Of a DNA stretch of 64,000 bases, positions 610 to 34,146 are shown one piece after another; within the stretch, counting starts at the first letter, position 1; every line of letters begins with the position of its first letter. A program made the translations under genes and the position numbers. Location of the stretch: assembly GCA_018693315.1 (NCBI GenBank), contig JABHLR010000005.1, positions 11,975 to 75,974 on the forward strand, given 5' to 3'. The notes beneath the pieces are model-generated. The model had not been told where the DNA came from. It saw only the letters and a program-made list of their open reading frames with translations, and did no database searches. This DNA is from an archaeon (GTDB taxonomy: Archaea; Nanobdellota; Nanobdellia; Pacearchaeales; GW2011-AR1).

Positions 610-630
610 GTATTCTTGGTAATTGTTTTT

Positions 631-2436
631 ATGAAGAAGAGTGGTATGTCTGCGATTGTTGCTGTAGTTTTGATTGTCTTGGTTACTGTTGTTGCGGTTG
701 GGGTTATTTGGGGTATGGTTATTCCTATGATTCAACAGGATTCAGGATTGGATACTTATGATGCTGATGTTATCATTAAGACGGATGGTGGATATACTTA
801 TTTTGATGAAGAAAAGGGTGTTGCTTGCGTGCAAGTTAAGAGGATTGGCGAAGGTAGGGGTTTGAGAAGGATTGATGTTTTGTTTAGTTATGATGGGGCG
901 ACGCTTGATGATAATGGGAATTTTTCAGGGGAAGAGTTGCCTGACGTTAACGGGATGAAGCAGAAGTGTTTTGATTTGACTAATATTATTGTTCAGGGTG
1001 CTGATGGAAAATATATTGCTCCGGATTCTATAACAATTGTGCCGATTTATTTTGATGGATCAAAGGAGATTGAGGGTACTGTCTCGAAGATTGACAGAGG
1101 TAGGGGGCTTACTTCAGGGAAATTTCTTGATTATGGGAGCGCTGAATCTGTTGGGGGATGTGAAGATGATAGCGGATGTTCGGCGGGGGTTTGCTACAAT
1201 GAGGCGTGTTATTCGGATATTATTGTTGGTGGTAAGGTAGATAATTGTTGGCAGTTGCAGAATATTAATTTGGGTTTGACTGAGGATTATATTTTAATGA
1301 AGGATCTTAATTGCTCAATGACTTCTACCTGGAACGGTGGCGATGGGTTTGACCCGATTGGAAATGATCCAAATGTATTTGCTGGGACTTTTGATGGACA
1401 AGGTTTTACGATAAGTGATTTGTATATCGATAGGCCTTCGGAGAATTATGTTGGGTTGTTTGGTTATGTTAGTGGTGGTGAAATAAAAAATGTTGGATTA
1501 GTTGATGTGATTATTCTTGGGGCTAACGATGTTGGCGGATTAGTTGGAGACAGTCATCAGTCTTTAATAGATAACTCTTATGTTACTGGAGCTGTAACTG
1601 GATCAAATAGTCGTGTAGGTGGATTGGTGGGTTATAGTCGTACAGCCTCTTTGGTAAATAACTCTTATGCGGCTGTAGAGGTAAGCGGGACGAGGGGTTT
1701 TACTGGCGGATTAGTAGGATATAATTATTATTCATCGGTAGATAATTCTTATGCAACTGGAACTGTGTTGGGAAGAGTTGCGCGTACAGGTGGATTGGTG
1801 GGCTATAGTCGTGAAGCGGCAATAGATAATTCTTATGCAACTGGAACTGTAGTTGGTGAAGCATATGTGGGGGGATTGGCCGGAGGTAATCAGAGGTCAT
1901 CAATAAATAATTCTTATGCTAGTGGGAATGTGCGAGGAGTTGATTACATTATAGGAGGATTAGTAGGTTATAATTCTCAATCGACAATAAATAACTCCTA
2001 TGCAATCGGAAATGTAGTTGGTGCAAAATCTACGGGCGGATTATCTGGAAATAATCATCAGGCCGCAATAATTAATTCTTATGCTATTGGAGATGTAAGC
2101 GGAACGGAATATGTAGGTGGGCTTGTGGGTAGTGCTGATTTTTATCCACCAATAAATAATTCTTATGCAACAGGGGCTGTGTCTGGAAGTCGCTATGTTG
2201 GGGGATTGGTAGGGGGCAGTAGTAGTGGTTCCACTCTTATAATCAGTGATTCTTATTGGAATAATCATTATTATAATCCTTCTGTTGGTTGTGGGAATTC
2301 TTGTGACGCTGTTATAATGGCTATTAGTGACGATGAAGGTTGGTTTTATGTTGAGGCTAATGCCCCTATGAATGCATGGAGCAGTTCGGCCTGGACCTGG
2401 TCTGGAACGGGTTATCCAAAACTTATTTGGGAATGA
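631..2436 (+). CDS. Pilin-like (class III signal peptide) surface protein with tandem GLUG-motif repeats
   Basis: N-terminus MKKSGMSAIVAVVLIVLVTVVAVGVIWG is a short basic stretch plus hydrophobic segment typical of archaeal type IV pilin-like signals. The C-terminal half carries about 10 tandem repeats of roughly 40 aa (NSYATGxVxGxxxVGGLVGY) that resemble the GLUG motif. Confidence 0.7.
   Translation: MKKSGMSAIVAVVLIVLVTVVAVGVIWGMVIPMIQQDSGLDTYDADVIIKTDGGYTYFDEEKGVACVQVKRIGEGRGLRRIDVLFSYDGATLDDNGNFSGEELPDVNGMKQKCFDLTNIIVQGADGKYIAPDSITIVPIYFDGSKEIEGTVSKIDRGRGLTSGKFLDYGSAESVGGCEDDSGCSAGVCYNEACYSDIIVGGKVDNCWQLQNINLGLTEDYILMKDLNCSMTSTWNGGDGFDPIGNDPNVFAGTFDGQGFTISDLYIDRPSENYVGLFGYVSGGEIKNVGLVDVIILGANDVGGLVGDSHQSLIDNSYVTGAVTGSNSRVGGLVGYSRTASLVNNSYAAVEVSGTRGFTGGLVGYNYYSSVDNSYATGTVLGRVARTGGLVGYSREAAIDNSYATGTVVGEAYVGGLAGGNQRSSINNSYASGNVRGVDYIIGGLVGYNSQSTINNSYAIGNVVGAKSTGGLSGNNHQAAIINSYAIGDVSGTEYVGGLVGSADFYPPINNSYATGAVSGSRYVGGLVGGSSSGSTLIISDSYWNNHYYNPSVGCGNSCDAVIMAISDDEGWFYVEANAPMNAWSSSAWTWSGTGYPKLIWE
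1450..2262 (+). repeat. In-frame tandem coding repeats (about 117-120 nt unit, about 10 copies) encoding the GLUG-like NSYAxG...GGLVGY motif
   Basis: Periodic recurrence of aattcttatgc(a/t)actgg and ggtggattggtgggtta strings across the region. Confidence 0.7.
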
Positions 2437-4297: not shown

Positions 4298-4352
4298 GTG
4301 CTCTGGAAAATTGGTTAGTTAATTATATAAAGTACTTTGTTGTCTGTTGGTT

Positions 4353-5708
4353 ATGAAAAAGTTTGGTGTGATTGTTTTTGCTTTAGTGTTAGTCTTTAGT
4401 TTCGGGTTTGTTGCGGCTGCAAGCTGTGGTGTTAGCGACGATAGTCAGTTGATTATGAGATTGTATCAGGAGAATAATTCTCATGGTGCTCTTTGGAATG
4501 ATACTAATGGTTATGATGTTGAGATTTGTGTGCCTGAGGGTGTGGATGTTGGAGATCATGTTTCTGGATTTAAGTTGTATTTGAGTGATGTGTTTAATGG
4601 GCATGTTTCTAATGTATCGGATGCTGTTTATGATCAGGTTGTTGGTTTTGGTGATAATTTAAATTGCGAATATGTTGAAGGTGATTGCCCTGAGGGATTT
4701 GGGTGTGTTGTGACTTTGTCCGCTGCTACTAATGCTCATCTTGCGACATGTGGTGCTGGTGCTTATTCAAATAAAGTTTGTTGTGGAGGTAGTGAAATTA
4801 TGTGGGCAGATATGAATGGCGATCTGATTAATAGTGCTGATTTGGGAGATACTGTTCAGATGATTAAGACTTATGCTGGCTCTGGAAGTTTTGATATTTT
4901 TGAGAATGATGATAGCCTTTTTGAGTTTCTTGTTGATGTTGATGATGAGATTAGGACTGGTCTTGTTGGTGATGATGTTGGTAGTAATTTGGTTGGGAAA
5001 TGGACGATAACTCGAGAAGATTTGGGAAGGACAGAGTATGGTGATTATACTGAATTTAGATTTATTGTCGACGGTGAAACAAGTGAGGCTTTGAATATTA
5101 ATCCAAAGAGGAATGATTCTAAGATGATTATTAGTATTGAGGATCCGGCTTGTGGGAGTTCTTTTGATGTTGGTGGTCCCTCTAGGCAGATTGGAGTTAT
5201 TGCTAATGATGTCGATGATGAGATTGTTGGGTCTTTGAGTGTTTTGGGTGTTGAGGTTGATACTTTTGGTAATGAGGAAGTTCTTTTGGATCATCCATTT
5301 GGTGTTCCTGGTAATGTGCAGATTATTGCTGAGGCGAATAATACTCGAGGGAAGATATCGCGGTCGGTTTCGAGTGTGATGGTTTTGGATAGGACTGTTG
5401 ATGGTAAATATTCTGCGGCTTGTATTGATAGGCCTAGGAATTTTGAGGATTTTGATGGGAATAGTATTGCGATTGATGCTTCGACGAGTCGGGCTGTTAG
5501 AGTTACTAATGGTGGGACTACAGCGACAGTGATTGTACCTGGAGATCCTGGTTTGAATTGGTATTGGACTTTTTCAAGAAGAGATGGTAATCATGAGATT
5601 AGGAATGTTTTAGGTGTTGCCGGAGAGGAGCTTATTGCTTATAATTTTACTGCTGAGTTTCCTAGTTCTGGAAATAATTGGGCTACGTTGGGATTGGATT
5701 TGGTTTAG
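4353..5708 (+). CDS. Secreted surface protein, paralog family A. The C-terminal roughly 300 aa module is shared with the giant protein ending at 12527.
   Basis: Sec-type signal peptide MKKFGVIVFALVLVFSFGFVAAASC. The C-terminal region EIMWADMNGD...NWATLGLDL is almost identical to the C-terminus of ORF 9003-12527. Confidence 0.7.
   Translation: MKKFGVIVFALVLVFSFGFVAAASCGVSDDSQLIMRLYQENNSHGALWNDTNGYDVEICVPEGVDVGDHVSGFKLYLSDVFNGHVSNVSDAVYDQVVGFGDNLNCEYVEGDCPEGFGCVVTLSAATNAHLATCGAGAYSNKVCCGGSEIMWADMNGDLINSADLGDTVQMIKTYAGSGSFDIFENDDSLFEFLVDVDDEIRTGLVGDDVGSNLVGKWTITREDLGRTEYGDYTEFRFIVDGETSEALNINPKRNDSKMIISIEDPACGSSFDVGGPSRQIGVIANDVDDEIVGSLSVLGVEVDTFGNEEVLLDHPFGVPGNVQIIAEANNTRGKISRSVSSVMVLDRTVDGKYSAACIDRPRNFEDFDGNSIAIDASTSRAVRVTNGGTTATVIVPGDPGLNWYWTFSRRDGNHEIRNVLGVAGEELIAYNFTAEFPSSGNNWATLGLDLV
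4791..5708 (+). repeat. Duplicated 3' gene module, copy 1; the partner copy is 11624-12527
   Basis: About 85-90% nt identity over the 5' part, rising to about 97% over the last 430 nt (ggtaatgtgcagatt...ttgggattggatttgg). Confidence 0.8.
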
Positions 5709-6023
5709 TGTTACCACTTAGAGATTACAGTAATAGAAAGTTTTTTAAATTGGATTTTGCTTGTGATTTTAACAATAAACAACCAAAGATAACTACGATC
5801 GACAACTCATCCTCTGGATGGCGACACACAACAAATTGTTATCAAAAATGAACTCAAAATGACTTCATTCGTACCCGAAATATCTCGTGATATTTTGTAG
5901 GTGAATGGAATACCTGTCATTAGGCGTTGATGCCTTATAATTGAGATTCATAGTTTTTCTATATAGTGTTAACCGGATTAGATGGTTTTGGTTCGGAATA
6001 CCTTCTTTTGAAAGGAGATTGGT

Positions 6024-6473
6024 ATGAATATGCAGTTTTTAGCGACGATGGTGTTGAACGAAAAGGTGATGACTTTCCTGCTCACCTATACCATTGTGTT
6101 CATGGCAGTGGTAGTTTTGACCTCTAAGATTTCATCAATTGTCGCGTTTGTTTCCGCGATTATCGTTCCTTGCTTGTTTTGGAACGGAACTTCTGAAGAG
6201 TTCGCGAGGTATAATCTCAGTTGTAAATTAGATGGCCAGGTCTTCTTCGTGTTCAATTGTATTCTTACGATTATAGGGGTGTTTTATTCTGCCTCCTGTT
6301 ATCGGATTGAGCAAGTAGATAAGAGGCTGGATGCTGCAGGCATTGAACGTCCCGAGACGATTTGGGAAAAGATAGGCCGAGCTTTGAGCTGCGATGAGGA
6401 TGCCGTTGATTCTGCGACTGGTTGGGCAGATAAATTGTCTGATTCGCAGACAGAGGTTAGTGAAGAACAATAA
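6024..6473 (+). CDS. Membrane protein (3-4 TM segments) with an acidic C-terminal tail, function unknown
   Basis: 149 aa ORF preceded by aaaggagattggtATG. Hydrophobic segments. Atypical composition. Confidence 0.5.
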   Translation: MNMQFLATMVLNEKVMTFLLTYTIVFMAVVVLTSKISSIVAFVSAIIVPCLFWNGTSEEFARYNLSCKLDGQVFFVFNCILTIIGVFYSASCYRIEQVDKRLDAAGIERPETIWEKIGRALSCDEDAVDSATGWADKLSDSQTEVSEEQ

Positions 6474-6528
6474 TTCTCGCTTTGTAATGCGAGATTCGAG
6501 TAAGAAACGTCTTTGAAAGGACAGAACG

Positions 6529-7200
6529 ATGAAACGTAGAATGATGATGACGATGCTTATTGGGGCTCTGTTGCTTGGAGCCGGAACTATCGAGACGGTC
6601 GAGGCGGCGGTTATTGTGAGCAGTTTTCAGGATTTGATTCCTGGAGTCGGCGAGTCGGGAGTTGTTGTAAATTCGATGCATATGGACATTAATTATGACA
6701 CTGGAGTTTTGGACAATCTGAAGGTCAGAGACCTGGACACTGGTGTCGATTCGGTAGTTGACGAAATTGGCGTTTGGCACCTTGGGCCCTATAAAAAGGT
6801 CTCAGGCGAATTCGTTTTTGGTGCTTTTGCCAACAACGACAACTGGGTTGCTGATATTGGCCCCGGACAAGCCGGTTGGCTTGATGGATATGCCTATGAC
6901 AGTGTTTTTTCCGAAGGGGAAAGTCCCGACGGTATGCTGTTGGTATTCGATCCTGATGGCGGACAGATGGCCTTGTCGTTTTCTACCGGTCCCCTGGTGT
7001 TTGATGCGAATACGACGCTGTACTGGTTGGACTCTCTCGAGCTTGATGGCTCGATTGGAGATGCCAGTGCTCTTGTGTTCTCATTTGGCCCGAGTGATGT
7101 CCGTATTCCGACTGCCGTCGTCGTACCGGAACCCGCAACCCTGACGCTACTCGCTGTAGGCGGACTGGTCGTTTTGCGCCGTCGCCGATCTCGGAAGTAA
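6529..7200 (+). CDS. Secreted protein with a PEP-CTERM-type C-terminal sorting signal
   Basis: Signal peptide MKRRMMMTMLIGALLLGAGTIETVEA. The C-terminus VPEPATLTLLAVGGLVVLRRRRSRK is a PEP motif followed by a TM helix and an Arg cluster. Confidence 0.6.
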   Translation: MKRRMMMTMLIGALLLGAGTIETVEAAVIVSSFQDLIPGVGESGVVVNSMHMDINYDTGVLDNLKVRDLDTGVDSVVDEIGVWHLGPYKKVSGEFVFGAFANNDNWVADIGPGQAGWLDGYAYDSVFSEGESPDGMLLVFDPDGGQMALSFSTGPLVFDANTTLYWLDSLELDGSIGDASALVFSFGPSDVRIPTAVVVPEPATLTLLAVGGLVVLRRRRSRK

Positions 7201-7228
7201 CGGAAGCCGCATGGGACGGATCCTCGTA

Positions 7229-7278
7229 AAAGGCTTTGTGTATAAGAGACGCTTTCTTATGCACAAGCCTTTTTTATT
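7229..7278 (+). terminator. Intrinsic-terminator-like hairpin followed by a T-tract
   Basis: aaaggctttgtgtataaga...tcttatgcacaagcctttttta forms a long imperfect stem and is followed by TTTTTTATTT. Confidence 0.5.
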
Positions 7279-7374
7279 TCTTAAAATGGTTACCAATGGT
7301 TACCAGTCTTTGGTGTGTGGTTTTTGGGGTGGTCGAGGGGCGCTCAAAATGTTTATAAAGTTGTGATATGTTGG

Positions 7375-8973
7375 ATGGATATGAGGTGGGCTGTAATTGT
7401 TTTGCTTGGAGTTTTTTTATTTAGTTTTGCTAGTGCATTAGATACTAGTGATTGTGATGATAGCATGGTAGCTTATTGGCAGTTTGAGGATAGTTTGGTA
7501 GATGGTTATGGGAGTCATGATGGAGGAAGTTGGAGCGGGGTTTCTGCTTATGGCGCAGTCTTAAGTACAGGTCTCGGTGCTTCTTTTGCTGGGAGTAGTA
7601 ATGTTACTATTGATGATGCAACTGATTTGAGGTTTTCTTCATCCTTCACAATTGAGATGTGGGTTGAGGCTACTGATTCTGGAATTATATTTGAAAAAGG
7701 AAATTATAAAATTGAATGGATAAAAGGTAGTGGTCTCCCAGCTCCTAATAATATTAGAGTGAGTGTCGGCAATGTAGTTCTTGATTCTGAAACTATAAGT
7801 GCTAGTGTTCCTCATTATGTTGCGGTGGTTTGGGATGCTGGGTCGGCGGAGAATTTGAGTCTTTATGTTGATGGTGTTTCTGTTAGTGGGACTTTGACGG
7901 GGGCGAGTGATGCGACAACTGATTTGGTTCTTGGTTATGGTTTTAAGGGTTTGATTGATGAGCTTGCGATTTATAGTAGGGCGCTTAGTGCTAGTGAGCT
8001 TGGTTTGCATCGTGGGCTTACGAATGCGGGGAAGGATTATTGTGATTTGTCTGGGGCTGGTGGGACTTCTGTTACTAGAACTGATTTTAGTGTTAATGGA
8101 TGTACTTTTGTTGGTTCTAATGGTCTCAATGTTGATGTGTCGAGGGGGAAGTGTTCTATTGATCCTAATTATGGTGAGTTTTATTGTGATGATGATCTTT
8201 TTCCTTGGATTACTTCGGAAGTTGGGTTAGGTTGTGCTATGGGAAATAGTGATTATGATACTACTAATAATGATAGTTTTTGTTGTCCGCATGGGTATTT
8301 CTGTAATGAGACTACTAGCGGTGGAGAGTTTAGGTGTAGTCTTCGTCCTGAGACTTGTGCGGAGCAGTTGACACAAACGGATTGTAATGCTGTTGATATT
8401 GGATGTATTTGGTTTGATGGAGTTTGTATTGAGGGACTTGGAGATTTTGATTGTGGTTATTACGAAAAGGGTGTGGATGCAGCGAACGAGGAGATTGCCT
8501 GTAATGCTGATAGGTTTAATCTTAGTAAGGTTGGTATAGGGACCGGGATGTGTGGTGAGACAATACAGTGTGCTGATGAGACGTATTCGATTCCTGTGGA
8601 TAATTGTGCTTGTGCGTGGTATGATGGTGCTGATGATGGAAAGAAGTGTCAGGTTAAGTTGGTTGCTATGCAGTTTTTCCATCAGACTGGTGTAGATCCA
8701 AATAGTTTTTCGTGTTCTAGCTCTTATGAACTTGGTCCTTGTGAGGGTGGGCAGCAGCTTGTGAACTGGACATCTCAGGTTCCTGTGGCGGATTTAATTG
8801 GGTTTACTTTAGGTGATGAGAATCTTACTAAATGCCTTACTGCTATAGGTTGTGATAGCGATAGTGATATTAGAAGTTGTGGTGAGCCGATAATTAAGTT
8901 GCCTGGGTTTAGTTTGTTTGCTTTTTTTGCGTCTTTGTTTATTGTCGGGATGTATTATTATTTTAGGGAATAA
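7375..8973 (+). CDS. Secreted Cys-rich LamG (concanavalin-like) domain protein with a PGF-CTERM-like tail
   Basis: Signal peptide MDMRWAVIVLLGVFLFSFASA. LamG_3-like block (FTIEMWVEA...LSLYVDGVSVSG...GLIDELAIYSRALSASEL). Many Cys. The C-terminus LPGFSLFAFFASLFIVGMYYYFRE is PGF plus a TM helix. TATA tttataaag 23 nt upstream. Confidence 0.7.
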   Translation: MDMRWAVIVLLGVFLFSFASALDTSDCDDSMVAYWQFEDSLVDGYGSHDGGSWSGVSAYGAVLSTGLGASFAGSSNVTIDDATDLRFSSSFTIEMWVEATDSGIIFEKGNYKIEWIKGSGLPAPNNIRVSVGNVVLDSETISASVPHYVAVVWDAGSAENLSLYVDGVSVSGTLTGASDATTDLVLGYGFKGLIDELAIYSRALSASELGLHRGLTNAGKDYCDLSGAGGTSVTRTDFSVNGCTFVGSNGLNVDVSRGKCSIDPNYGEFYCDDDLFPWITSEVGLGCAMGNSDYDTTNNDSFCCPHGYFCNETTSGGEFRCSLRPETCAEQLTQTDCNAVDIGCIWFDGVCIEGLGDFDCGYYEKGVDAANEEIACNADRFNLSKVGIGTGMCGETIQCADETYSIPVDNCACAWYDGADDGKKCQVKLVAMQFFHQTGVDPNSFSCSSSYELGPCEGGQQLVNWTSQVPVADLIGFTLGDENLTKCLTAIGCDSDSDIRSCGEPIIKLPGFSLFAFFASLFIVGMYYYFRE

Positions 8974-8982: not shown

Positions 8983-9002
8983 GTAATTGGGTTGTGTTGT
9001 TT

Positions 9003-12000
9003 ATGAGAAAATTTGGTGTGTTAGCTTTGGTTTTGGTTTTTTTATTTGCGTTTAGTTTTGTTGCGGCGGGGGGTGGATCGCGTGATATAATTAGAAATGT
9101 TGGTTATGAGAATGTGCGTTCTGTAGATGGGGATGTTTGTACGGTAGATCTTTATTTTGATTCTTGTGTTTGGCCAGATTTGGTCATTACCAATCAATGG
9201 TCTAGTAAAACAATTGACGATATTCAAACGGACCCCGAGGGTGATGATCTTGGGTCATGTTGGGGTGGCCAGTTGGTGCACCAGGAAGGTCAGTATTATC
9301 CTGGGACTGCTGCAAGGTATTATGTTAGGGATTTAGATGTTTCTTGTGAGACTGCTGAGGATCATGTTTTTTATGTTAAGGGTACTTGTAGCGGCGGCGA
9401 GTATTGTTGGGAGAATGAAACACATTCAATAGATGTTAATTATGAGGTGCCCTTTATTCCGAGAGATGTTTGTGGTTTATCTGGGATGGTTGGTTTTTGG
9501 GATTTTAGTGGTACGTCTGATACGGTTGTAACTGACTTTAGCGGTAACGGGTTTAATGGAGTAATGGAAGATTCTTCTACTCGTGTTGCTGGAAAAGTTG
9601 GAGAAGCGTTAAGTTTTTCAGGAGCAGGGAGAGTTAATCTTGGTAATTCTGCTTTGTTGAATCCGGTGAGTGAACTGAGTATTGAATTTTTGATGAAAAC
9701 TGCGGATGATGCTGCAGATATTGGAGTTATGTTTTCGAGGCATTGGAGTTTGGATACTGGCCCTAATTGGGCTCAGAGATTGTCTGTCGTCGCTGGAAAG
9801 CTTAATTTTGGGTATGCTGGTGGGGTGAGTTTAACTGGGAATGCGGATGTTGCGAATGGTGTTTGGCACCATGTTGTTTTGACTCATGATGGATCTAGTT
9901 TTAAGCTTTATGTTGATGGGGTTTTGGACAGAAGCGTTCCGGCTCCCGGGAATTTTATTAGTTCTACTTCTAATACATATATAGGGAATTCTAATTATGC
10001 GGGGAATTATGGGATTGGTCATTATAATGGATTGATGGATGAGGTTGCGTTTTATAATCGGGCGTTGACTACTGCGGAAATTTCTGGGCATTATGTGAGT
10101 GTTAGCAATGGTGTTAATTATTGTACGCCTATTGAGGCTGAGAGCACTTGCAATGCTGTTAATTTGGATGTCTATAAAGTTGATCGAGCGACGTATGCGG
10201 TTCCACCTGTTGGTTTGTCTGATGATATTAATTATATGACCCTTGATCGTTCTGCTTCTGATTTGACTGCTTCTGATTTGGCGAATGTTGATGTTTTGAT
10301 TATTGCTGATACTTATTTGACAGGGGATCCAACTCATTCCTGCGATTCTTTGAATGAATGGTCTTGTGCCGCGAATTATGTGAATATTATAGGTAGTTTT
10401 GCGGAGTTAGATGTGATAAAGGATGCTTGGGAAGGTGGGATGGATGTTATTTTGATTGGTGATAATGGCGGTACTCCTGTTGGTAATTCAATAGCAAATT
10501 ATTGGTCAGCGACGGTTACAAACTATTTGACAGACACTATGTATTATACTAATTATGGTATTGCTTATGCTAATGCTCCCCTTGATCCTCCGACTCCAGA
10601 TTTGGCCCAGTTTCCTTTTTTGGAAGGTGTCCAATTCTCTTTGTCATGGGATGGTATCTGGTCTCCTGGGTTGATTTACAATGTGTATTCTCCTGCTAAG
10701 TGTGCTGCTCGTACTGTTATTGATGGATCTTGTATTGCTGCCTATTTACCAAGGGCTGCGGGTCGTGGTTATTTATTTGTTTCTGGTAATGCTAATGTTG
10801 GAAGTGATATTTATACTAAGAATCTGATTGAGAGGAGTTGTCAGGCTGAATGTGCTCTACCTAATTTAGAAGGGTATTGGAGTTTTAACGATGGTTCGAG
10901 TACGAGTGTTTCTGATTTGAGTGGGAATTTTAATAATGGAGTTGTTGTTGGTATGGGTGACGATGATTTGAGCAGTGGGGTATCTGGCTTGGCTTTAGAT
11001 TTTGACGGAGTGGAGGATTATGTTGAGGTGGCAAATAATGATAATTTGAAGTTGGAAAAATTTACGACGGCTGCTTGGTTTAAGGTTAATCGTTTGTTGC
11101 AAGCAGGGGATGAATCTTGGGTGATTTTAATGAGGGGAGAAGAGGTTCAATCTGGGAATTTGAATTATAATACTCAACTTATTAATAGTCCTACTTTGTT
11201 TGGTGAGGATAGTATGAAGCTGGCTTGTGGTTTTGAAAATACTGTTGATACTAACCACTGGATTATTTATGACGTGCATGATGCTTCTTTTGTTGACCGA
11301 TGGATTCATGTTGCTTGTACTTTGGACGGAAACGATTGGAAGATGTATATTGATGGGGAAGAGGTTTCAACTGATTTAAGGAATGGTCGTGAAGCAATAG
11401 CGAGCCTTGGCGGAACTAAACCTTCGCTGATTACTTCTCCTTTTTATGTTGGGGGGGCTTTTTCCAGTGATGGTGATGAAGGAGGAGTAGATGACGTGGT
11501 TAGCTTTTTCGATGGTTCGATAGATGAGGTTTCTGTTTGGAGCAAAGCTTTGACTGCGGTGGAGGTTAAGAATTTGTACGATAAAGGAACGGCTGGACTT
11601 GGGTATTGTGATGTTGCTCCTGTGAGTGAGATTATGTGGGCAGATATGAATGGTGATGAGATTGTTAGTGCTGATCTTGGGGATACTGTTCAGATGATTA
11701 AGACTTATGCTGGTTCTGGAAGTTTTGATATTTTTGAGGAGGATGATACTGTTACAGATCCTTTTGATGATGAGATTAGGAATGATATTGCCGGCGTTGG
11801 TGTTGGTAGTAATTTGATCGGGAAGTGGACCATAACTCAGGACGATTTAAGGAAGACTCTTGGGGATTATGAGGAGTTTAGGTTTATTGTCGACGGTGAG
11901 ACGAGCGAGGCTTTGAGTATTAATCCAAGGAGAGATGATGATAGGATGGTTGTTGGTGTTGAGAATCCGGCTTGTGGTACTCATTTTAACCAAGGAGATG

Positions 12001-12527
12001 GTACAATTATTAGGGTTGTTGTCAGTGATCGTGACGATGAGGTTAGTGGATCTTTAGCTGTTTCTGATGTTGAGGTTGCTACTTTTGGCAATGGTGGAGT
12101 TATTCAGGGCTATACATTTAGTGTTCCTGGTAATGTGCAGATTGTTGCTGATGCGAATAATACTCGAGGGAAGAGATCGCGGTCGGTTTCGAGTGTGATG
12201 GTTTTGGATAGGACTGTTGATGGTAAATATTCTGCGGCTTGTATTGATAGGCCTAGGAATTTTGAGGATTTTGAGGGGAATAGTATTCCGATTGATGCTT
12301 CGACGAGTCGGGCTGTTAGAGTTACTAATGGTGGGACTACAGCGACAGTGATTGTACCTGGAGATCCTGGTTTGAATTGGTATTGGACTTTTTCGAGGAG
12401 AGATGGTAATCATGAAATTAGGAATGTTTTAGGTGTTGCCGGAGAGAGTCTTCTTGCTTATAATTTTACTGCTGAGTTTCCTAGTTCTGGAAATAATTGG
12501 GCTACGTTGGGATTGGATTTGGATTAG
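9003..12527 (+). CDS. Giant secreted surface protein (about 1175 aa) with two LamG-like domains and a shared C-terminal module
   Basis: Signal peptide MRKFGVLALVLVFLFAFSFVAAGGGS. Two concanavalin/LamG-like segments (FSGNGFNG...LYVDGVL...EVAFYNRALT and LSGNFNNG...MYIDGEE...EVSVWSKALT). C-terminal 300 aa near-identical to ORF 4353-5708. Confidence 0.75.
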   Translation: MRKFGVLALVLVFLFAFSFVAAGGGSRDIIRNVGYENVRSVDGDVCTVDLYFDSCVWPDLVITNQWSSKTIDDIQTDPEGDDLGSCWGGQLVHQEGQYYPGTAARYYVRDLDVSCETAEDHVFYVKGTCSGGEYCWENETHSIDVNYEVPFIPRDVCGLSGMVGFWDFSGTSDTVVTDFSGNGFNGVMEDSSTRVAGKVGEALSFSGAGRVNLGNSALLNPVSELSIEFLMKTADDAADIGVMFSRHWSLDTGPNWAQRLSVVAGKLNFGYAGGVSLTGNADVANGVWHHVVLTHDGSSFKLYVDGVLDRSVPAPGNFISSTSNTYIGNSNYAGNYGIGHYNGLMDEVAFYNRALTTAEISGHYVSVSNGVNYCTPIEAESTCNAVNLDVYKVDRATYAVPPVGLSDDINYMTLDRSASDLTASDLANVDVLIIADTYLTGDPTHSCDSLNEWSCAANYVNIIGSFAELDVIKDAWEGGMDVILIGDNGGTPVGNSIANYWSATVTNYLTDTMYYTNYGIAYANAPLDPPTPDLAQFPFLEGVQFSLSWDGIWSPGLIYNVYSPAKCAARTVIDGSCIAAYLPRAAGRGYLFVSGNANVGSDIYTKNLIERSCQAECALPNLEGYWSFNDGSSTSVSDLSGNFNNGVVVGMGDDDLSSGVSGLALDFDGVEDYVEVANNDNLKLEKFTTAAWFKVNRLLQAGDESWVILMRGEEVQSGNLNYNTQLINSPTLFGEDSMKLACGFENTVDTNHWIIYDVHDASFVDRWIHVACTLDGNDWKMYIDGEEVSTDLRNGREAIASLGGTKPSLITSPFYVGGAFSSDGDEGGVDDVVSFFDGSIDEVSVWSKALTAVEVKNLYDKGTAGLGYCDVAPVSEIMWADMNGDEIVSADLGDTVQMIKTYAGSGSFDIFEEDDTVTDPFDDEIRNDIAGVGVGSNLIGKWTITQDDLRKTLGDYEEFRFIVDGETSEALSINPRRDDDRMVVGVENPACGTHFNQGDGTIIRVVVSDRDDEVSGSLAVSDVEVATFGNGGVIQGYTFSVPGNVQIVADANNTRGKRSRSVSSVMVLDRTVDGKYSAACIDRPRNFEDFEGNSIPIDASTSRAVRVTNGGTTATVIVPGDPGLNWYWTFSRRDGNHEIRNVLGVAGESLLAYNFTAEFPSSGNNWATLGLDLD
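11624..12527 (+). repeat. Duplicated 3' gene module, copy 2; partner copy is 4791-5708
   Basis: Near-identical nucleotide sequence, including the last roughly 430 nt at about 97% identity. Confidence 0.8.
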
Positions 12528-12543
12528 TTTCTTGGGGGAATGA

Positions 12544-16232: not shown

Positions 16233-16676
16233 ATGGTGAAGAAAAAAGTGGTGAAAAAAGTTTCTAAGAAGAAGAAGGTTTCTAGGAAATCTGTGGCGAA
16301 GGATTTGACGATTCATTTTATGCCGTATTCTGAGATTGCGCATGAGGATGCGATTGGTAGGATTAAGAAAATTATGGGGATTGTTTTGAAGGGAAAGATT
16401 ATTATTTTGCAGGGGAAGTTGAGGCCTGATGAAGAGGCGAGGTTGATTGAGAATTCTATGACGCTGATTGGGAATATCGAAGGATTTCAAGGGGTTGAGA
16501 TTGCTGGGCTTTCTGGAGAGAATGAGAACCGTGGTTTGTTTGAGAAAGTGAGGCATAATATTGCGAGAATTTTGGTGGGAGAGCAGGATGCGATCACGAT
16601 TATTGGGCCAGCTTCTGTTGTTAAGGATATTACGAAGGATCCGAAGAAGATTGAGTTGATGCTTCAGCGTAGATAG
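16233..16676 (+). CDS. Conserved archaeal hypothetical protein (DUF2073-like), Lys-rich N-terminus
   Basis: 147 aa. Recalled resemblance to an archaeal family usually found next to a small GTPase and a Zn-ribbon protein; the family assignment is from memory, not a search. Confidence 0.5.
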   Translation: MVKKKVVKKVSKKKKVSRKSVAKDLTIHFMPYSEIAHEDAIGRIKKIMGIVLKGKIIILQGKLRPDEEARLIENSMTLIGNIEGFQGVEIAGLSGENENRGLFEKVRHNIARILVGEQDAITIIGPASVVKDITKDPKKIELMLQRR

Positions 16677-16710
16677 ATAAGTTTATTAATTTCTTAGTTC
16701 TGTTTATTGT

Positions 16711-17079
16711 ATGCCACATCAATGCGTACATTGTAGTAAAATAATTGAAGTTGGGAGTAAGGAAATTCTCGAGGGTTGTAATAGTTGTGGCGGTAAGTTT
16801 TTTTTCTATATTCGTGATGAGCAGGCGGCTAAAATAAAGGAGTCGAAGGAGGAAGTTATTCCGGAGTTTAATACTGTCGATAAGGTGAAAGTTGAGGAGG
16901 ACGTTCGTAGTATTTTGAAGGTTGAGGATGATGAGAAGCCTGTGATTTTGGATTTGGAGAGCGTGAAGGTTTTAGGTCCTGGAAAGTTTGAGTTGGATAT
17001 TGTGAGTTTGATGAACAGGAAGCCGATTGTGTTTAAGGTTAGCGAAGGGAAATATATTATTGATATTGAGGGGATGTGA
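16711..17079 (+). CDS. Zn-ribbon protein (CxxC...CxxC), DUF2072/COG3364-like
   Basis: N-terminal HQCVHCSKII...CNSCGGKFF four-Cys ribbon. 122 aa. Confidence 0.5.
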   Translation: MPHQCVHCSKIIEVGSKEILEGCNSCGGKFFFYIRDEQAAKIKESKEEVIPEFNTVDKVKVEEDVRSILKVEDDEKPVILDLESVKVLGPGKFELDIVSLMNRKPIVFKVSEGKYIIDIEGM

Positions 17080-34110: not shown

Positions 34111-34146
34111 TTAGTTTTATATATGCTTTTTCTGATAGTTGTTTAT

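What the first reader, a model, noticed from the sequence alone, without database searches (positions are those of the whole stretch)
5709..7310. Bacterial-looking 1.6 kb insert encoding a PEP-CTERM protein inside the archaeal surface-protein cluster
Composition and codon bias change abruptly. Both ORFs have GGAGA/AGGA Shine-Dalgarno spacing. The second ORF has a bacterial-type signal peptide and a canonical PEP-CTERM tail (VPEPATLTLLAVGGLVVLRRRR). The unit ends in a long hairpin plus T-tract terminator (7229-7278) and tandem TGGTTACCA repeats (7287-7306), and GTTACCA also occurs at the left edge (5711). PEP-CTERM/exosortase sorting is classically bacterial; archaeal relatives usually carry other archaeosortase-type tails such as PGF-CTERM, so inter-domain transfer is a plausible origin.
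Basis: partly seen in the sequence, partly recalled or inferred. Interest (0 to 1): 0.65.

Follow-up and report, generated by a model that had tools for sequence, protein, structure and literature searches.

The report
Swappable PEP-CTERM surface-protein cassette, archaeal locus
A 1.6 kb stretch with foreign, bacterial-style composition and gene signals really does sit in this archaeon's surface-protein cluster, but related archaea carry a related cassette in the same slot, so it looks like a recently swapped-in version of a resident cassette rather than a one-off bacterial insertion.

Summary
Window 5709-7306 differs sharply from the host in C content and in amino-acid-controlled codon use. 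It has two Shine-Dalgarno-led ORFs, whereas host genes have a TATA box about 30 nt upstream and no SD. ORF2 passes the curated PEP-CTERM thresholds and ends in a strong hairpin/T-tract followed by two TGGTTACCA boxes. It is not an assembly artefact: at least 10 independent assemblies carry it at 99.9% identity or more.

Relatives whose LamG orthologs are 47-52% identical (one about 79% at DNA level) carry the same or a related secreted, usually PEP-CTERM-tailed gene directly upstream of the LamG gene. It lies between a conserved ~300-nt leader and a conserved 35-nt element (TTTTTTATTTCTTAAAATGGTTACCAATGGTTACC). Copies range from unskewed (window) to host-like composition, and cassette ends are far better conserved than the flanking host gene.

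Best reading: a conserved surface-protein slot whose content is replaced by recombination through conserved ends, from a pool that includes mobile-element copies. The GTTACCA target-site duplication is not supported. No sortase lies in the window; a relative encodes a pacearchaeosortase beside its LamG gene. The bacterial origin of the family remains open.

The parts
4347..5708 (+). Upstream host surface-protein gene (453 aa), the left anchor of the slot. Its C-terminal ~300 aa are repeated in the 1177-aa protein (8994-12527).
   Evidence: Host-like composition: GC3 0.27, third-position skew 0.74. About 85% nt identity to 11625-12528. A gene with the homologous C-terminal domain precedes the leader in L022.
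5709..6023 (+). Conserved non-coding leader of the cassette. It contains a sigma-70-like / TATA-like element at 5914-5941 (CTGTCA-16-TATAAT), a candidate conserved hairpin around 5866-5910, and the first TTTGAAAGGA ribosome-binding region at 6007-6016. GTTACCA lies at 5710-5716.
   Evidence: 89% identical to L004 over 5718-5965 and 93.5% to L003 over 5890-5965. Alignable to L022 838-1173 with long invariant blocks. No Rfam match. RNAalifold on 3 sequences gives a hairpin with two compensatory pairs, which is suggestive only. GC skew is 0.09, against 0.46 for pooled host intergenic DNA.
6024..6473 (+). ORF1, 149 aa: three predicted N-terminal transmembrane helices and an acidic C-terminal tail. 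It is an orphan, found in this strain only. Relatives have nothing here (L003, L004) or a 38-39 aa TM peptide (L008, L022).
   Evidence: No Pfam or NCBIfam hit. The only database hit is the same strain. TM segments at residues 13, 35 and 69. Codon z = -3.4. Absent from L003/L004 at the homologous place.
6474..6528 (+). Inter-ORF spacer with a small hairpin (6475-6494) and the second TTTGAAAGGA ribosome-binding region (6512-6521).
   Evidence: The region 6508-6621 is 95.6% identical to L003 and 99% identical to L004.
6529..7200 (+). ORF2, 223 aa. Signal peptide is about residues 1-27 (6529-6609). An all-beta mature domain of an unnamed family spans about residues 28-195. The PEP-CTERM tripartite tail VPEPATLTLLAVGGLVVLRRRRSRK covers residues 199-223 (about 7123-7197).
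   Evidence: PF07589 at 23 bits and TIGR02595 at 20.8 bits, both above cutoff. NCBI names it a PEP-CTERM sorting domain-containing protein [archaeon]. The family has 199 cluster representatives at E<=1e-3. AF2 model has pLDDT 88.2 and pTM 0.80, with no Foldseek match in PDB or BFVD. Codon z = -5.5.
7228..7283 (+). Intrinsic-terminator-like hairpin (stem 7228-7273) and T-tract.
   Evidence: Relatives have hairpins of different sequence at the same place.
7270..7306 (+). Conserved 35-nt element TTTTTTATTTCTTAAAATGGTTACCAATGGTTACC, with two GGTTACC boxes 10 bp apart. It marks the right end of the cassette.
   Evidence: Identical in the window, L003, L002 and L008. Variants TTTATTTC(G/T)TAnnnTGGTTACCAnnGGTTACC occur in L021, L022 and L023. 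It occurs once per locus, always after the cassette gene. It is the only non-coding stretch, apart from the LamG promoter and 5' end, that BLAST still finds between the window and L021/L022/L023, at 86-92%. The C-content change point falls at 7308.
7347..7383 (+). Host-type promoter (TTTATAAA at 7352-7359) and start codon of the LamG gene (ATG 7381).
   Evidence: The same box and spacing occur at other host genes. Conserved in L003, L021, L022 and L023.
7381..8973 (+). Downstream host gene, the right anchor of the slot: a 530-aa LamG-domain surface protein with a PGF-like C-terminal tail (KLPGFSLFAFFASLFIVGMYYYFRE).
   Evidence: PF13385 at 62 bits. Orthologs follow the cassette in L003, L020, L021, L022 and the P0047 contig. 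The tail was seen by regex and by eye and is not hit by any sorting-signal HMM.

Best explanation
Window 5709-7306 is the current occupant of a conserved cassette slot in the surface-protein cluster of a marine DPANN-type archaeon. The slot lies between the 453-aa surface-protein gene and the LamG/PGF-tail gene. Across the lineage it is bounded on the left by a ~300-nt conserved leader and on the right by a hairpin terminator plus a conserved 35-nt element with two GGTTACC boxes. In between sit SD-led genes for secreted proteins, usually this same ~170-aa all-beta domain family and usually with a PEP-CTERM tail.

The copy in this genome was replaced recently. The likely route is homologous recombination through the conserved ends (leader/SD/signal-peptide on the left, tail/terminator/35-mer/LamG promoter on the right). 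The incoming version had evolved in DNA without the host's extreme strand bias, such as mobile-element-borne copies. That is why it looks foreign. All of this step is inferred.

Functionally, also inferred: ORF2 is exported by Sec, its signal peptide is removed, and its PEP-CTERM helix is cleaved by an exosortase/archaeosortase-family enzyme encoded elsewhere in the genome. The candidate is the pacearchaeosortase type seen next to the LamG ortholog in a relative. The beta domain would then be anchored on the cell surface, where rapid allele turnover would serve attachment or evasion. ORF1 is a strain-specific small membrane protein co-transcribed with ORF2; its role is unknown.
For: Real and fixed:
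- 17 contigs from several samples and assemblers carry the exact LamG protein. The 10 shown are collinear with the window through the block at 99.94-100% identity. L001 shows the left junction.

Foreign composition:
- (z = -5.5 and -3.4; third-position skew 0.03 against 0.68).
- Codon use fits the L023 backbone or L002 gene 2 better than the host, at -1.75 to -1.81 against -2.22.

Conserved slot:
- L003: leader, family member P0005, 35-mer, then the LamG ortholog at 78.6% nt identity.
- L021: an unrelated mature domain with a PEP-CTERM tail (TIGR02595 25.9 bits), hairpin, motif, LamG.
- L022: homologous upstream gene, homologous leader, small TM ORF, Slam-like pair, family member, motif, Bro-N, LamG.
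- L020: family member P0023, LamG, pacearchaeosortase NF033505 at 116.9 bits against a cutoff of 80.
- P0047, a distant member with a PEP-CTERM tail, sits directly before LamG. It is followed by a 97-aa gene, PKD, GTPase, OapB, OapC and the archaeal CCA enzyme. The window has the same order.

Mosaic conservation:
- Against L003, the SD+signal region is 95.6% identical and the flanking LamG 78.6% (Fisher p = 8e-6). The leader is 93.5% (p = 0.001). The mature domains share only ~45% aa identity.
- L002 and L008 share 92% of the 5'UTR+signal region.

Different ages:
- Third-position skew of cassette genes is -0.06 to 0.03 (window, L003, L004), 0.17-0.21 (L021, L020) and 0.40-0.55 (L022, L008). 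Flanking host genes are 0.44-0.76.

Mobile-element copy:
- L023/L024 have GC 0.45 and no skew, and encode a VirB4/CedB-like ATPase, ThiF and DUF2958. They carry a family member, hairpin, motif, the LamG promoter and the first ~28 LamG codons, and then break off.
Against: - No donor sequence was found. The nearest homolog of ORF2 outside the strain is only 62% identical (P0002), so the replacement event itself is inferred.
- ORF1 has no relative anywhere, so part of the block has no demonstrated counterpart in other slots.
- L020 lacks the 35-mer.
- No sortase gene is in the window, and it is untested whether a pacearchaeosortase accepts a PEP motif.
- L002 (GC 0.52) and L005-L007 show family members without a LamG neighbour. 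One representative is labelled Sedimentisphaerales. Direct transfer from bacteria is therefore not excluded.
- Most related contigs are short (1-3 kb).
Confidence: 0.6

Rival explanations
1. One reading: a single recent bacterium-to-archaeon transfer, in which a 1.6-kb bacterial unit was inserted site-specifically at GTTACCA and duplicated the target.
For: - Bacterial-style SD, hairpin terminator, sigma-70-like hexamers at 5914-5941 and a PEP-CTERM tail.
- Unskewed composition.
- GTTACCA at both edges; three of the four copies in 64 kb are there.
- One family representative is annotated Sedimentisphaerales bacterium.
- Bacterial-type genes (ECF sigma, Slam-like) lie at the same slot in relatives.
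Against: - The same family sits in the same position in at least five related archaeal contexts, including distant ones.
- The leader at the left end is homologous in L022, where the GTTACCA is not conserved.
- No integrase, Bro-N or tRNA is near the block.
- No close bacterial homolog turned up. The scan of 185,579 species genomes found none with the two peptide patterns used.
- Ameliorated copies exist.
Confidence: 0.13
2. The GGTTACC x2 element is a site-specific recombination site, and the slot works like an integron or shufflon: a tyrosine recombinase captures and exchanges cassettes next to the motif.
For: - Variable gene content lies directly left of the motif.
- Extra insertions (Bro-N in L022 and L008, a second cassette in L002) lie directly right of it.
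- A XerA/integron-integrase-like recombinase lies next to the family member in L020.
- An MGE-like contig carries cassette plus motif.
- L009 has the exact 22-mer and two similar pairs around a tRNA fragment and a tyrosine integrase.
- The motif is the best-conserved non-coding element of the locus.
Against: - No recombinase is in the window.
- L020, the locus with the recombinase, has no motif.
- Cassettes are homologous to each other rather than unrelated genes.
- Conserved ends extend over hundreds of nt, which suits homologous recombination.
- The L009 match could be chance among tandem 10-mers. I estimate the expectation for an exact 22-mer in that collection at roughly 0.05-0.1.
- No motif was found in viral contigs.
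Confidence: 0.12
3. No transfer at all: the cassette is vertically inherited, and its odd composition is kept by selection or by a locally different mutation regime. In that case the 35-mer is simply a transcription-factor operator or terminator element of the locus.
For: - Conserved position across the lineage.
- The leader and 35-mer are conserved, as regulatory DNA would be.
- The conserved leader is less skewed than other intergenic DNA even in L022.
Against: - The deviation is at synonymous third positions across 223 codons (skew 0.03, GC3 0.52), and it is worse than uniform codon choice under the host model.
- Orthologous-slot copies in L008 and L022 have host-like skew, so the slot itself does not prevent amelioration.
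- The signal-peptide DNA is far more similar between lineages than the flanking gene.
Confidence: 0.08
4. Metagenomic assembly chimera: bacterial reads spliced into an archaeal contig.
For: - The abrupt composition change.
- The low-coverage contig L001 ends in 61 nt of unrelated 70% GC sequence exactly at the signal/mature boundary.
Against: - Ten independent assemblies (SPAdes-, MEGAHIT- and Logan-style names, JGI; several samples) are collinear through both junctions at 99.94% identity or more.
- Both flanks belong to the same archaeal cluster.
Confidence: 0.01

Closest known systems
PEP-CTERM / exosortase (EpsH, XrtA) protein-sorting system of Gram-negative bacteria (Haft et al. 2006, PMC1569441; overview in bioRxiv 10.1101/2023.06.07.544157)
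   Same: ORF2 has an N-terminal signal peptide and a C-terminal tripartite signal: a PEP motif abutting a hydrophobic helix, then an Arg/Lys cluster. It passes both curated HMM thresholds. Several slot occupants in relatives keep the same tail, including one with an unrelated mature domain.
   Different: The host is an archaeon without an outer membrane. No exosortase or EPS locus is in the window. The only sortase-family gene seen in the lineage is a pacearchaeosortase. The mature domain belongs to no named PEP-CTERM subfamily; the NF0381xx models hit the tail only, far below cutoff.
Archaeosortase A / PGF-CTERM anchoring of archaeal surface glycoproteins (Haloferax volcanii; reviewed in PMC6098224)
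   Same: This is the likely mode of action: a Sec substrate is held by a C-terminal helix, which an intramembrane Cys protease of the exosortase/archaeosortase family cleaves, leaving the protein anchored on the surface. The neighbouring LamG protein has a PGF-like tail. In L020 its ortholog lies next to a sortase of this family.
   Different: ORF2's signature is PEP, not PGF, and no PGF-CTERM model is hit. According to the reference list of PMC6098224, permuting PGF blocks ArtA processing in Haloferax, so cross-recognition cannot be assumed. The cognate signal of pacearchaeosortase is not described in any paper I could search.
Replacement flexible genomic islands for cell-surface structures, where different gene versions at one conserved locus are exchanged by homologous recombination at the flanks (concept from my own knowledge of the marine-microbe pangenome literature; not checked in a paper here)
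   Same: Same locus, conserved flanks, divergent interior, surface-exposed product, and composition differing between versions.
   Different: The unit here is very small (1-4 kb, one to four genes). It carries its own conserved leader and a conserved 35-nt 3' element. It is seen in DPANN-type archaea, and a copy with host promoter DNA sits on an MGE-like contig.
Integron gene cassettes (integron integrase, attI, attC)
   Same: Small, mostly single-gene units with a conserved imperfectly palindromic element at the 3' end are arranged in tandem in at least one locus (L002).
   Different: There is no integrase at the window locus. The cassettes bring their own leader, SD and terminator, and are homologous to each other. 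The 3' element is a 10-bp tandem of GGTTACC, not an attC-type long imperfect inverted repeat.

Membership tests
PEP-CTERM sorting domain (PF07589 / TIGR02595) | HMM score above the curated threshold at the extreme C-terminus | tested here: met
   PF07589 scores 23.0 against 20.7 and TIGR02595 20.8 against 16, over residues 199-221 of 223.
PEP-CTERM sorting domain (PF07589 / TIGR02595) | Tripartite architecture (Pro-Glu-Pro motif, hydrophobic helix, basic cluster) plus an N-terminal signal peptide | tested here: met
   VPEP-ATLTLLAVGGLVVL-RRRRSRK; TM windows at residues 6 and 196. The signal-peptide cleavage site was read by eye.
PEP-CTERM / exosortase system | An exosortase (EpsH/Xrt) encoded in the same genome | not testable with these tools
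   None in the 64-kb window: tblastn/phmmer with the L020 sortase and NCBIfam scans of the multi-TM ORFs were negative. The rest of the 162-232 kb contig and the genome could not be read. A relative (L020) has a pacearchaeosortase, NF033505 at 116.9 bits.
PEP-CTERM / exosortase system | Host is a Gram-negative bacterium with an outer membrane, usually with an EPS locus (as described in PMC1569441) | tested here: not met
   The window encodes archaeal FttA, GatD/GatE, archaeal CCA enzyme, OapB/OapC and archaeal signal peptidase I.
PGF-CTERM / archaeosortase A substrates | Match to the PGF-CTERM signal model | tested here: not met
   No PGF-CTERM family appears among the NCBIfam hits of ORF2 at E<=0.1.
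Site-specifically integrated genomic island | Integrase gene in or beside the island | tested here: not met
   phmmer with two tyrosine recombinases found nothing among all window ORFs.
Site-specifically integrated genomic island | Flanking direct repeats (att / target duplication) that are conserved or explain an empty site | tested here: not met
   GTTACCA is present at 5710 and at 7289/7299. The homologous left end in L022 reads GTCACTAC, and the cassettes of L021, L022 and L023 have no left copy. No empty site was found.
Site-specifically integrated genomic island | tRNA or other classical target next to the island | tested here: not met
   The only tRNAs are at 34146 and 62447.
Replacement flexible genomic island (homologous-recombination exchange) | Same chromosomal position in related genomes, conserved flanks and divergent interior | tested here: met
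Replacement flexible genomic island (homologous-recombination exchange) | Flank similarity higher than the genome-wide divergence (a sign of recent exchange) | tested here: met
   SD+signal is 95.6% identical against 78.6% for LamG, p = 8e-6. This rests on one pair of genomes, window and L003.
Integron cassette array | Integron integrase with attI upstream of cassettes that end in attC | tested here: not met
   No integrase in the window. The 3' element is a tandem 10-mer, not an attC-like structure.
Intrinsic (hairpin + T-tract) terminator | Stable GC-containing stem-loop directly followed by a T run downstream of the stop codon | tested here: met
   Stem of about 20 pairs at 7228-7273 followed by T6; z = -3.98. 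Function in an archaeon was not tested.

The most novel reading that the evidence does not exclude
The conserved leader and the 35-nt GGTTACC x2 element delimit a dedicated exchange slot. Through it, marine DPANN archaea, their mobile elements and possibly bacteria trade small, self-contained surface-protein cassettes. The lineage's pacearchaeosortase genuinely processes PEP-CTERM tails. That would make this an exosortase-type PEP sorting pathway operating in archaea, coupled to a new cassette-swapping mechanism for surface variation.
Probability: 0.15. Interest if true: 0.7.

Novelty: new variant of a known kind. Interest (0 to 1): 0.42.

Why it matters
DPANN archaea live attached to other cells, and their surface proteins are the interface of that lifestyle, yet almost nothing is known about how these proteins are sorted or how they diversify. 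This locus has three useful consequences.

- PEP-CTERM-tailed proteins are long-term residents of a DPANN surface-protein cluster, not just stray bacterial genes. That gives a concrete substrate candidate for the uncharacterised pacearchaeosortase.
- It is a compact, easily tracked example of allele replacement at a surface locus. The Saanich Inlet and other oxygen-deficient-zone time series could follow it.
- It contains two conserved non-coding elements (a ~300-nt leader and a 35-nt GGTTACC x2 box) and an unnamed all-beta domain family, all of which can be tested.

It also shows that a strong composition anomaly need not mean a new insertion.

Tried and rejected
- Assembly chimera: rejected.
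- Recent inversion of a host gene: rejected. The block fits the - strand codon model just as badly, and its third-position skew is about 0, not negative.
- GTTACCA target duplication: rejected on comparative grounds.
- tRNA/tmRNA or any Rfam family in or near the block: none.
- Exosortase/archaeosortase, integrase, Bro-N or a second family member in the window: none.
- Relatives in one genome per species (185,579 species): two scans, with the cassette family and with LamG, both empty. This method needs near-exact peptide patterns, so it says little about distant bacterial members. The window's own genome is evidently not among those representatives.
- Viral contigs: the motif (two patterns) and the protein family were all empty. 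One call failed because alignment A3 was too diverse.
- Metagenome scan for the exact 22-mer: only L008 (same system) and L009. L009 is a GC-rich integrase/tRNA-fragment contig; I treat it as a weak lead, possibly chance.
- Taxonomy of the family: 30 representatives were looked up and only one is named.
- Literature: no paper links PEP-CTERM with Pacearchaeota, Woesearchaeota or DPANN, and none mentions pacearchaeosortase. Haft 2012 (PMC3256604) is not held.
- Codon-model comparison with the L023, L020 and L002 backbones: ORF2 fits them better than the host, but only at about the level of uniform codon use. It does not identify a donor.
Full report
**1. What is there**

The window belongs to an archaeon. 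It encodes the transcription termination factor FttA/aCPSF1, GatD/GatE, the archaeal CCA-adding enzyme, a type IB topoisomerase, OapB/OapC and archaeal signal peptidase I. NCBI labels the source only as 'archaeon'.

The genome has an extreme strand bias:
- Third-codon-position GC skew is +0.68 (sd 0.21) in + strand genes.
- It is about -0.55, in the gene's own sense, in - strand genes.
- The + strand is therefore G-rich and C-poor whatever the gene orientation.

Host genes carry a TTTATAAA/TTTATATA box 25-35 nt before the start codon and no Shine-Dalgarno sequence.

**2. The observation**

- *C content.* A two-change-point fit puts the anomalous block at 5780-7308, with C 0.19 inside and 0.10 outside.
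- *Codon use.* Conditional on amino acid, ORF2 (6529-7200) is at z = -5.5 and ORF1 (6024-6473) at z = -3.4 relative to 38 + strand host genes. Both fall below the worst host gene, and both fit the - strand gene model equally badly, so a recent inversion is excluded.
- *Start signals.* Both ORFs are preceded by the same TTTGAAAGGA box.
- *ORF2 tail.* ORF2 passes the Pfam and TIGRFAM PEP-CTERM thresholds.
- *Terminator.* A hairpin of about 20 bp at 7228-7273 plus a T-tract follows the stop codon; the region folds with z = -4.0.
- *Repeats.* TGGTTACCA occurs at 7287 and 7297, and GTTACCA at 5710.

**3. Not an artefact**

The exact LamG protein downstream of the block is on 17 contigs from different samples and assemblers, including Saanich Inlet samples, MGnify-type assemblies, JGI and Logan. 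The ten places returned are collinear with the window through both junctions at 99.94-100% identity.

**4. The same slot in related archaea**

This is what changes the interpretation. The slot occupants are as follows.

| Locus | Content of the slot, in order |
|---|---|
| L003 | Part of the leader (93.5%); SD+signal region (95.6%); family member with only ~45% aa identity in the mature domain; PEP-CTERM tail; hairpin; identical 35-mer; LamG ortholog at 78.6% nt identity. No ORF1. |
| L004 | Same type as L003; leader 89% identical. |
| L021 (LamG 49% aa) | A secreted protein with an unrelated mature domain but a PEP-CTERM tail (TIGR02595 25.9 bits); hairpin; TTTATTTCGTAATATGGTTACCAAAGGTTACCA; LamG. 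Then a 92-aa gene, PKD protein, GTPase and OapB, as in the window. |
| L022 (LamG 48% aa) | Gene with the same C-terminal domain as the window's 453-aa protein; leader alignable to window 5718-6020; 38-aa membrane peptide; Slam-like lipoprotein and SlipAM barrel; family member with a different C-terminus; hairpin; motif; Bro-N gene on the other strand; LamG. |
| L020 | Family member (P0023) 1.4 kb upstream of LamG; a pacearchaeosortase directly after LamG (NF033505, 116.9 bits, cutoff 80). |
| P0047 contig (94 kb) | A distant, PEP-CTERM-tailed member directly before LamG, then 97 aa, PKD, GTPase, OapB, OapC and the archaeal CCA enzyme. This is the window's gene order. |

Both ends of the supposed insert, the leader and the 35-mer, are conserved parts of the locus.

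**5. Why it still looks foreign**

Slot occupants differ in how far they have drifted toward the host bias. Third-position skew is:
- -0.06 to 0.03 in the window, L003 and L004;
- 0.17-0.21 in L021 and L020;
- 0.40-0.55 in L022 and L008;
- 0.44-0.76 in their flanking host genes.

Conservation is mosaic. The leader, SD and signal-peptide DNA are much more similar between the window and L003 than the neighbouring LamG gene is (p = 8e-6 and 0.001), while the mature domains have diverged beyond DNA recognition. L002 and L008 likewise share the 5'UTR+signal region at 92%.

A contig with mobile-element character (L023/L024) has GC 0.45 and no skew, and encodes a VirB4/CedB-like ATPase, ThiF and DUF2958. 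It carries a family member, hairpin, motif, the archaeal LamG promoter and the first ~28 LamG codons, and then breaks off. Such a copy would supply both homology arms for replacement.

I therefore read the window's block as a recent replacement of the slot's content by a version that evolved outside the strand-biased chromosome. The replacement event is inferred; no donor was found. ORF2's codon use is close to uniform and fits the L023 and L002 backbones only slightly better than chance.

**6. The GGTTACC element**

TTTTTTATTTCTTAAAATGGTTACCAATGGTTACC is identical in four loci whose coding DNA is otherwise 72% identical or unalignable. It persists as TTTATTTC(G/T)TAnnnTGGTTACCAnnGGTTACC in L021, L022 and L023. 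It occurs once per locus, always just after the cassette's terminator and 20-45 nt before the LamG TATA box, unless something is inserted in between. Extra DNA sits immediately to its right: Bro-N in L022 and L008, and a second cassette in L002.

It could be an operator, a terminator-associated site, or a recombination site; I cannot tell which. The only hint of a recombinase link is L009. That GC-rich contig has the 22-mer and two similar pairs around a tRNA fragment and a frameshifted tyrosine integrase, and the match may be chance.

The left GTTACCA of the window is not conserved in the homologous L022 leader and is absent from other loci. No integrase or tRNA adjoins the block. The target-duplication idea is therefore dropped.

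**7. Function**

ORF2 has a Sec-type signal peptide, a ~170-residue all-beta domain and the PEP-CTERM tail.

The domain family has about 200 cluster representatives at E<=1e-3 and 79 at E<=1e-10 among 1.84 billion. Its motifs are DNLMxRD, (G)YANNDN, GWCxG, DPDGGQ(F/M)A and DIEFxGVxGD, and the C-termini are either PEP-CTERM or a dockerin-like Cys/Asp segment. It has no Pfam or NCBIfam name. The AlphaFold model is confident (pLDDT 88, pTM 0.80) but has no significant Foldseek match in PDB or BFVD.

The PEP-CTERM tail persists in ameliorated archaeal copies and on an unrelated mature domain at the same slot (L008, L021, P0047). This argues that the tail is used in these archaea. The only sortase-family enzyme seen in the lineage is the pacearchaeosortase of L020. 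None is in the window. Whether it accepts PEP as well as the PGF-like tail of LamG is untested.

ORF1 is a 149-aa three-helix membrane protein with no relatives. Relatives have nothing, or a 38-39-aa membrane peptide, at that place.

**8. Origin of the family**

Bacterial features are evident: SD, hairpin terminator, the PEP-CTERM tail, and bacterial-type neighbours at the slot (ECF sigma and Slam-like genes in relatives). One representative is labelled Sedimentisphaerales, and P0010 lies in non-skewed, GC-richer flanks without LamG.

However, every context long enough to judge is either the archaeal LamG slot or the MGE-like contig. An old inter-domain transfer into this lineage is plausible but not shown, and the direction of transfer is open.

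**9. Verdict**

This is a small, recently exchanged PEP-CTERM surface-protein cassette in a conserved slot of a DPANN-type archaeal surface-protein cluster. It combines known kinds of system: exosortase-type sorting signals and replacement surface islands. The unusual features are the host domain and two conserved non-coding elements of unknown function.

Interest is moderate (0.42). The most novel reading still open is a dedicated cassette-exchange site plus PEP-CTERM sorting by a pacearchaeosortase, with a probability of about 0.15.

Noticed in passing
window 1-64000: Extreme strand asymmetry. Third-position GC skew is about +0.68 in + strand genes and about -0.55 (own sense) in - strand genes. 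Cumulative skew rises monotonically over all 64 kb, even though the origin-associated genes oapB/oapC (16233-17079) lie in the window.
   Followed up: partly
window 5709-6023; L022 838-1173; L004 1-338: A ~300-nt non-coding leader is conserved between lineages whose LamG proteins are only ~48% identical. It has invariant blocks (GAGATTACAnTAATAG, TTCGTACCCG, TGTAGGTGAATGGAATAC, TTAGGCGT) and a candidate hairpin with two compensatory pairs. It matches no Rfam family.
   Followed up: partly
window 4791-5709 and 11625-12528: The 453-aa and 1177-aa surface proteins share a ~300-aa C-terminal domain at about 85% DNA identity, indicating recent duplication or gene conversion inside the cluster.
   Followed up: no
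window 8890-8970; L020 9480-10142: The LamG protein ends in a PGF-like tripartite tail (KLPGFSLFAFFASLFIVGMYYYFRE) that no sorting-signal HMM recognises. In L020 the ortholog (…RVPGFSLFSLIASVV…) is followed directly by a pacearchaeosortase gene. This may be that sortase's unrecognised cognate signal.
   Followed up: partly
L022 1385-4071: A Slam-dependent-lipoprotein-like gene and a SlipAM/TPR_Slam beta-barrel gene lie in the same slot of a related archaeon. These are bacterial outer-membrane machinery, yet here they have host-like strand skew (0.49-0.72 at third positions).
   Followed up: no
L020 1-7900: Upstream of the LamG ortholog lies an 8-kb block without the host skew. It encodes a radical SAM enzyme, a Cys/Asp-rich repeat protein, an ECF sigma factor with a likely anti-sigma partner, a 212-aa XerA-like tyrosine recombinase, the family member P0023 and an NTase/HEPN pair.
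   Followed up: partly
L023 7930-8885 (also L024): An MGE-like contig (VirB4/CedB-like ATPase, ThiF, DUF2958; GC 0.45, no skew) contains a ~950-bp patch of archaeal-locus DNA. The patch holds a family member, hairpin, GGTTACC motif, LamG promoter and 28 LamG codons, and ends abruptly.
   Followed up: partly
L001 2747-2807 (window equivalent 6612): A low-coverage contig of the same strain departs from the window exactly at the signal-peptide/mature-domain boundary into 61 nt of 70% GC sequence. This is either a chimeric contig end or a rare alternative allele.
   Followed up: no
L009 (2591 bp, GC 0.56): The exact 22-mer AAAATGGTTACCAATGGTTACC occurs here together with two similar pairs (ATGGTTACCTGATGGTTACC; GGTTACCGATGGTTACC inside the gene). 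They lie around a tRNA 3' fragment and a frameshifted tyrosine integrase next to an XRE-type HTH gene.
   Followed up: partly
L002 1-1170: Two family members lie in tandem with near-identical promoter/5'UTR/signal-peptide modules (repeat unit starting CCCCTCACCCCCAACCC at 45 and 955). They are separated by the 35-mer and ~50 nt of G/T-rich, host-like sequence. The second gene is longer than 693 aa.
   Followed up: no
window 616-2436: The first gene of the cluster (606 aa, GLUG repeats) starts with an archaeal type IV pilin-like (class III) signal sequence, judged by eye. The cluster therefore mixes several export and anchoring routes.
   Followed up: no
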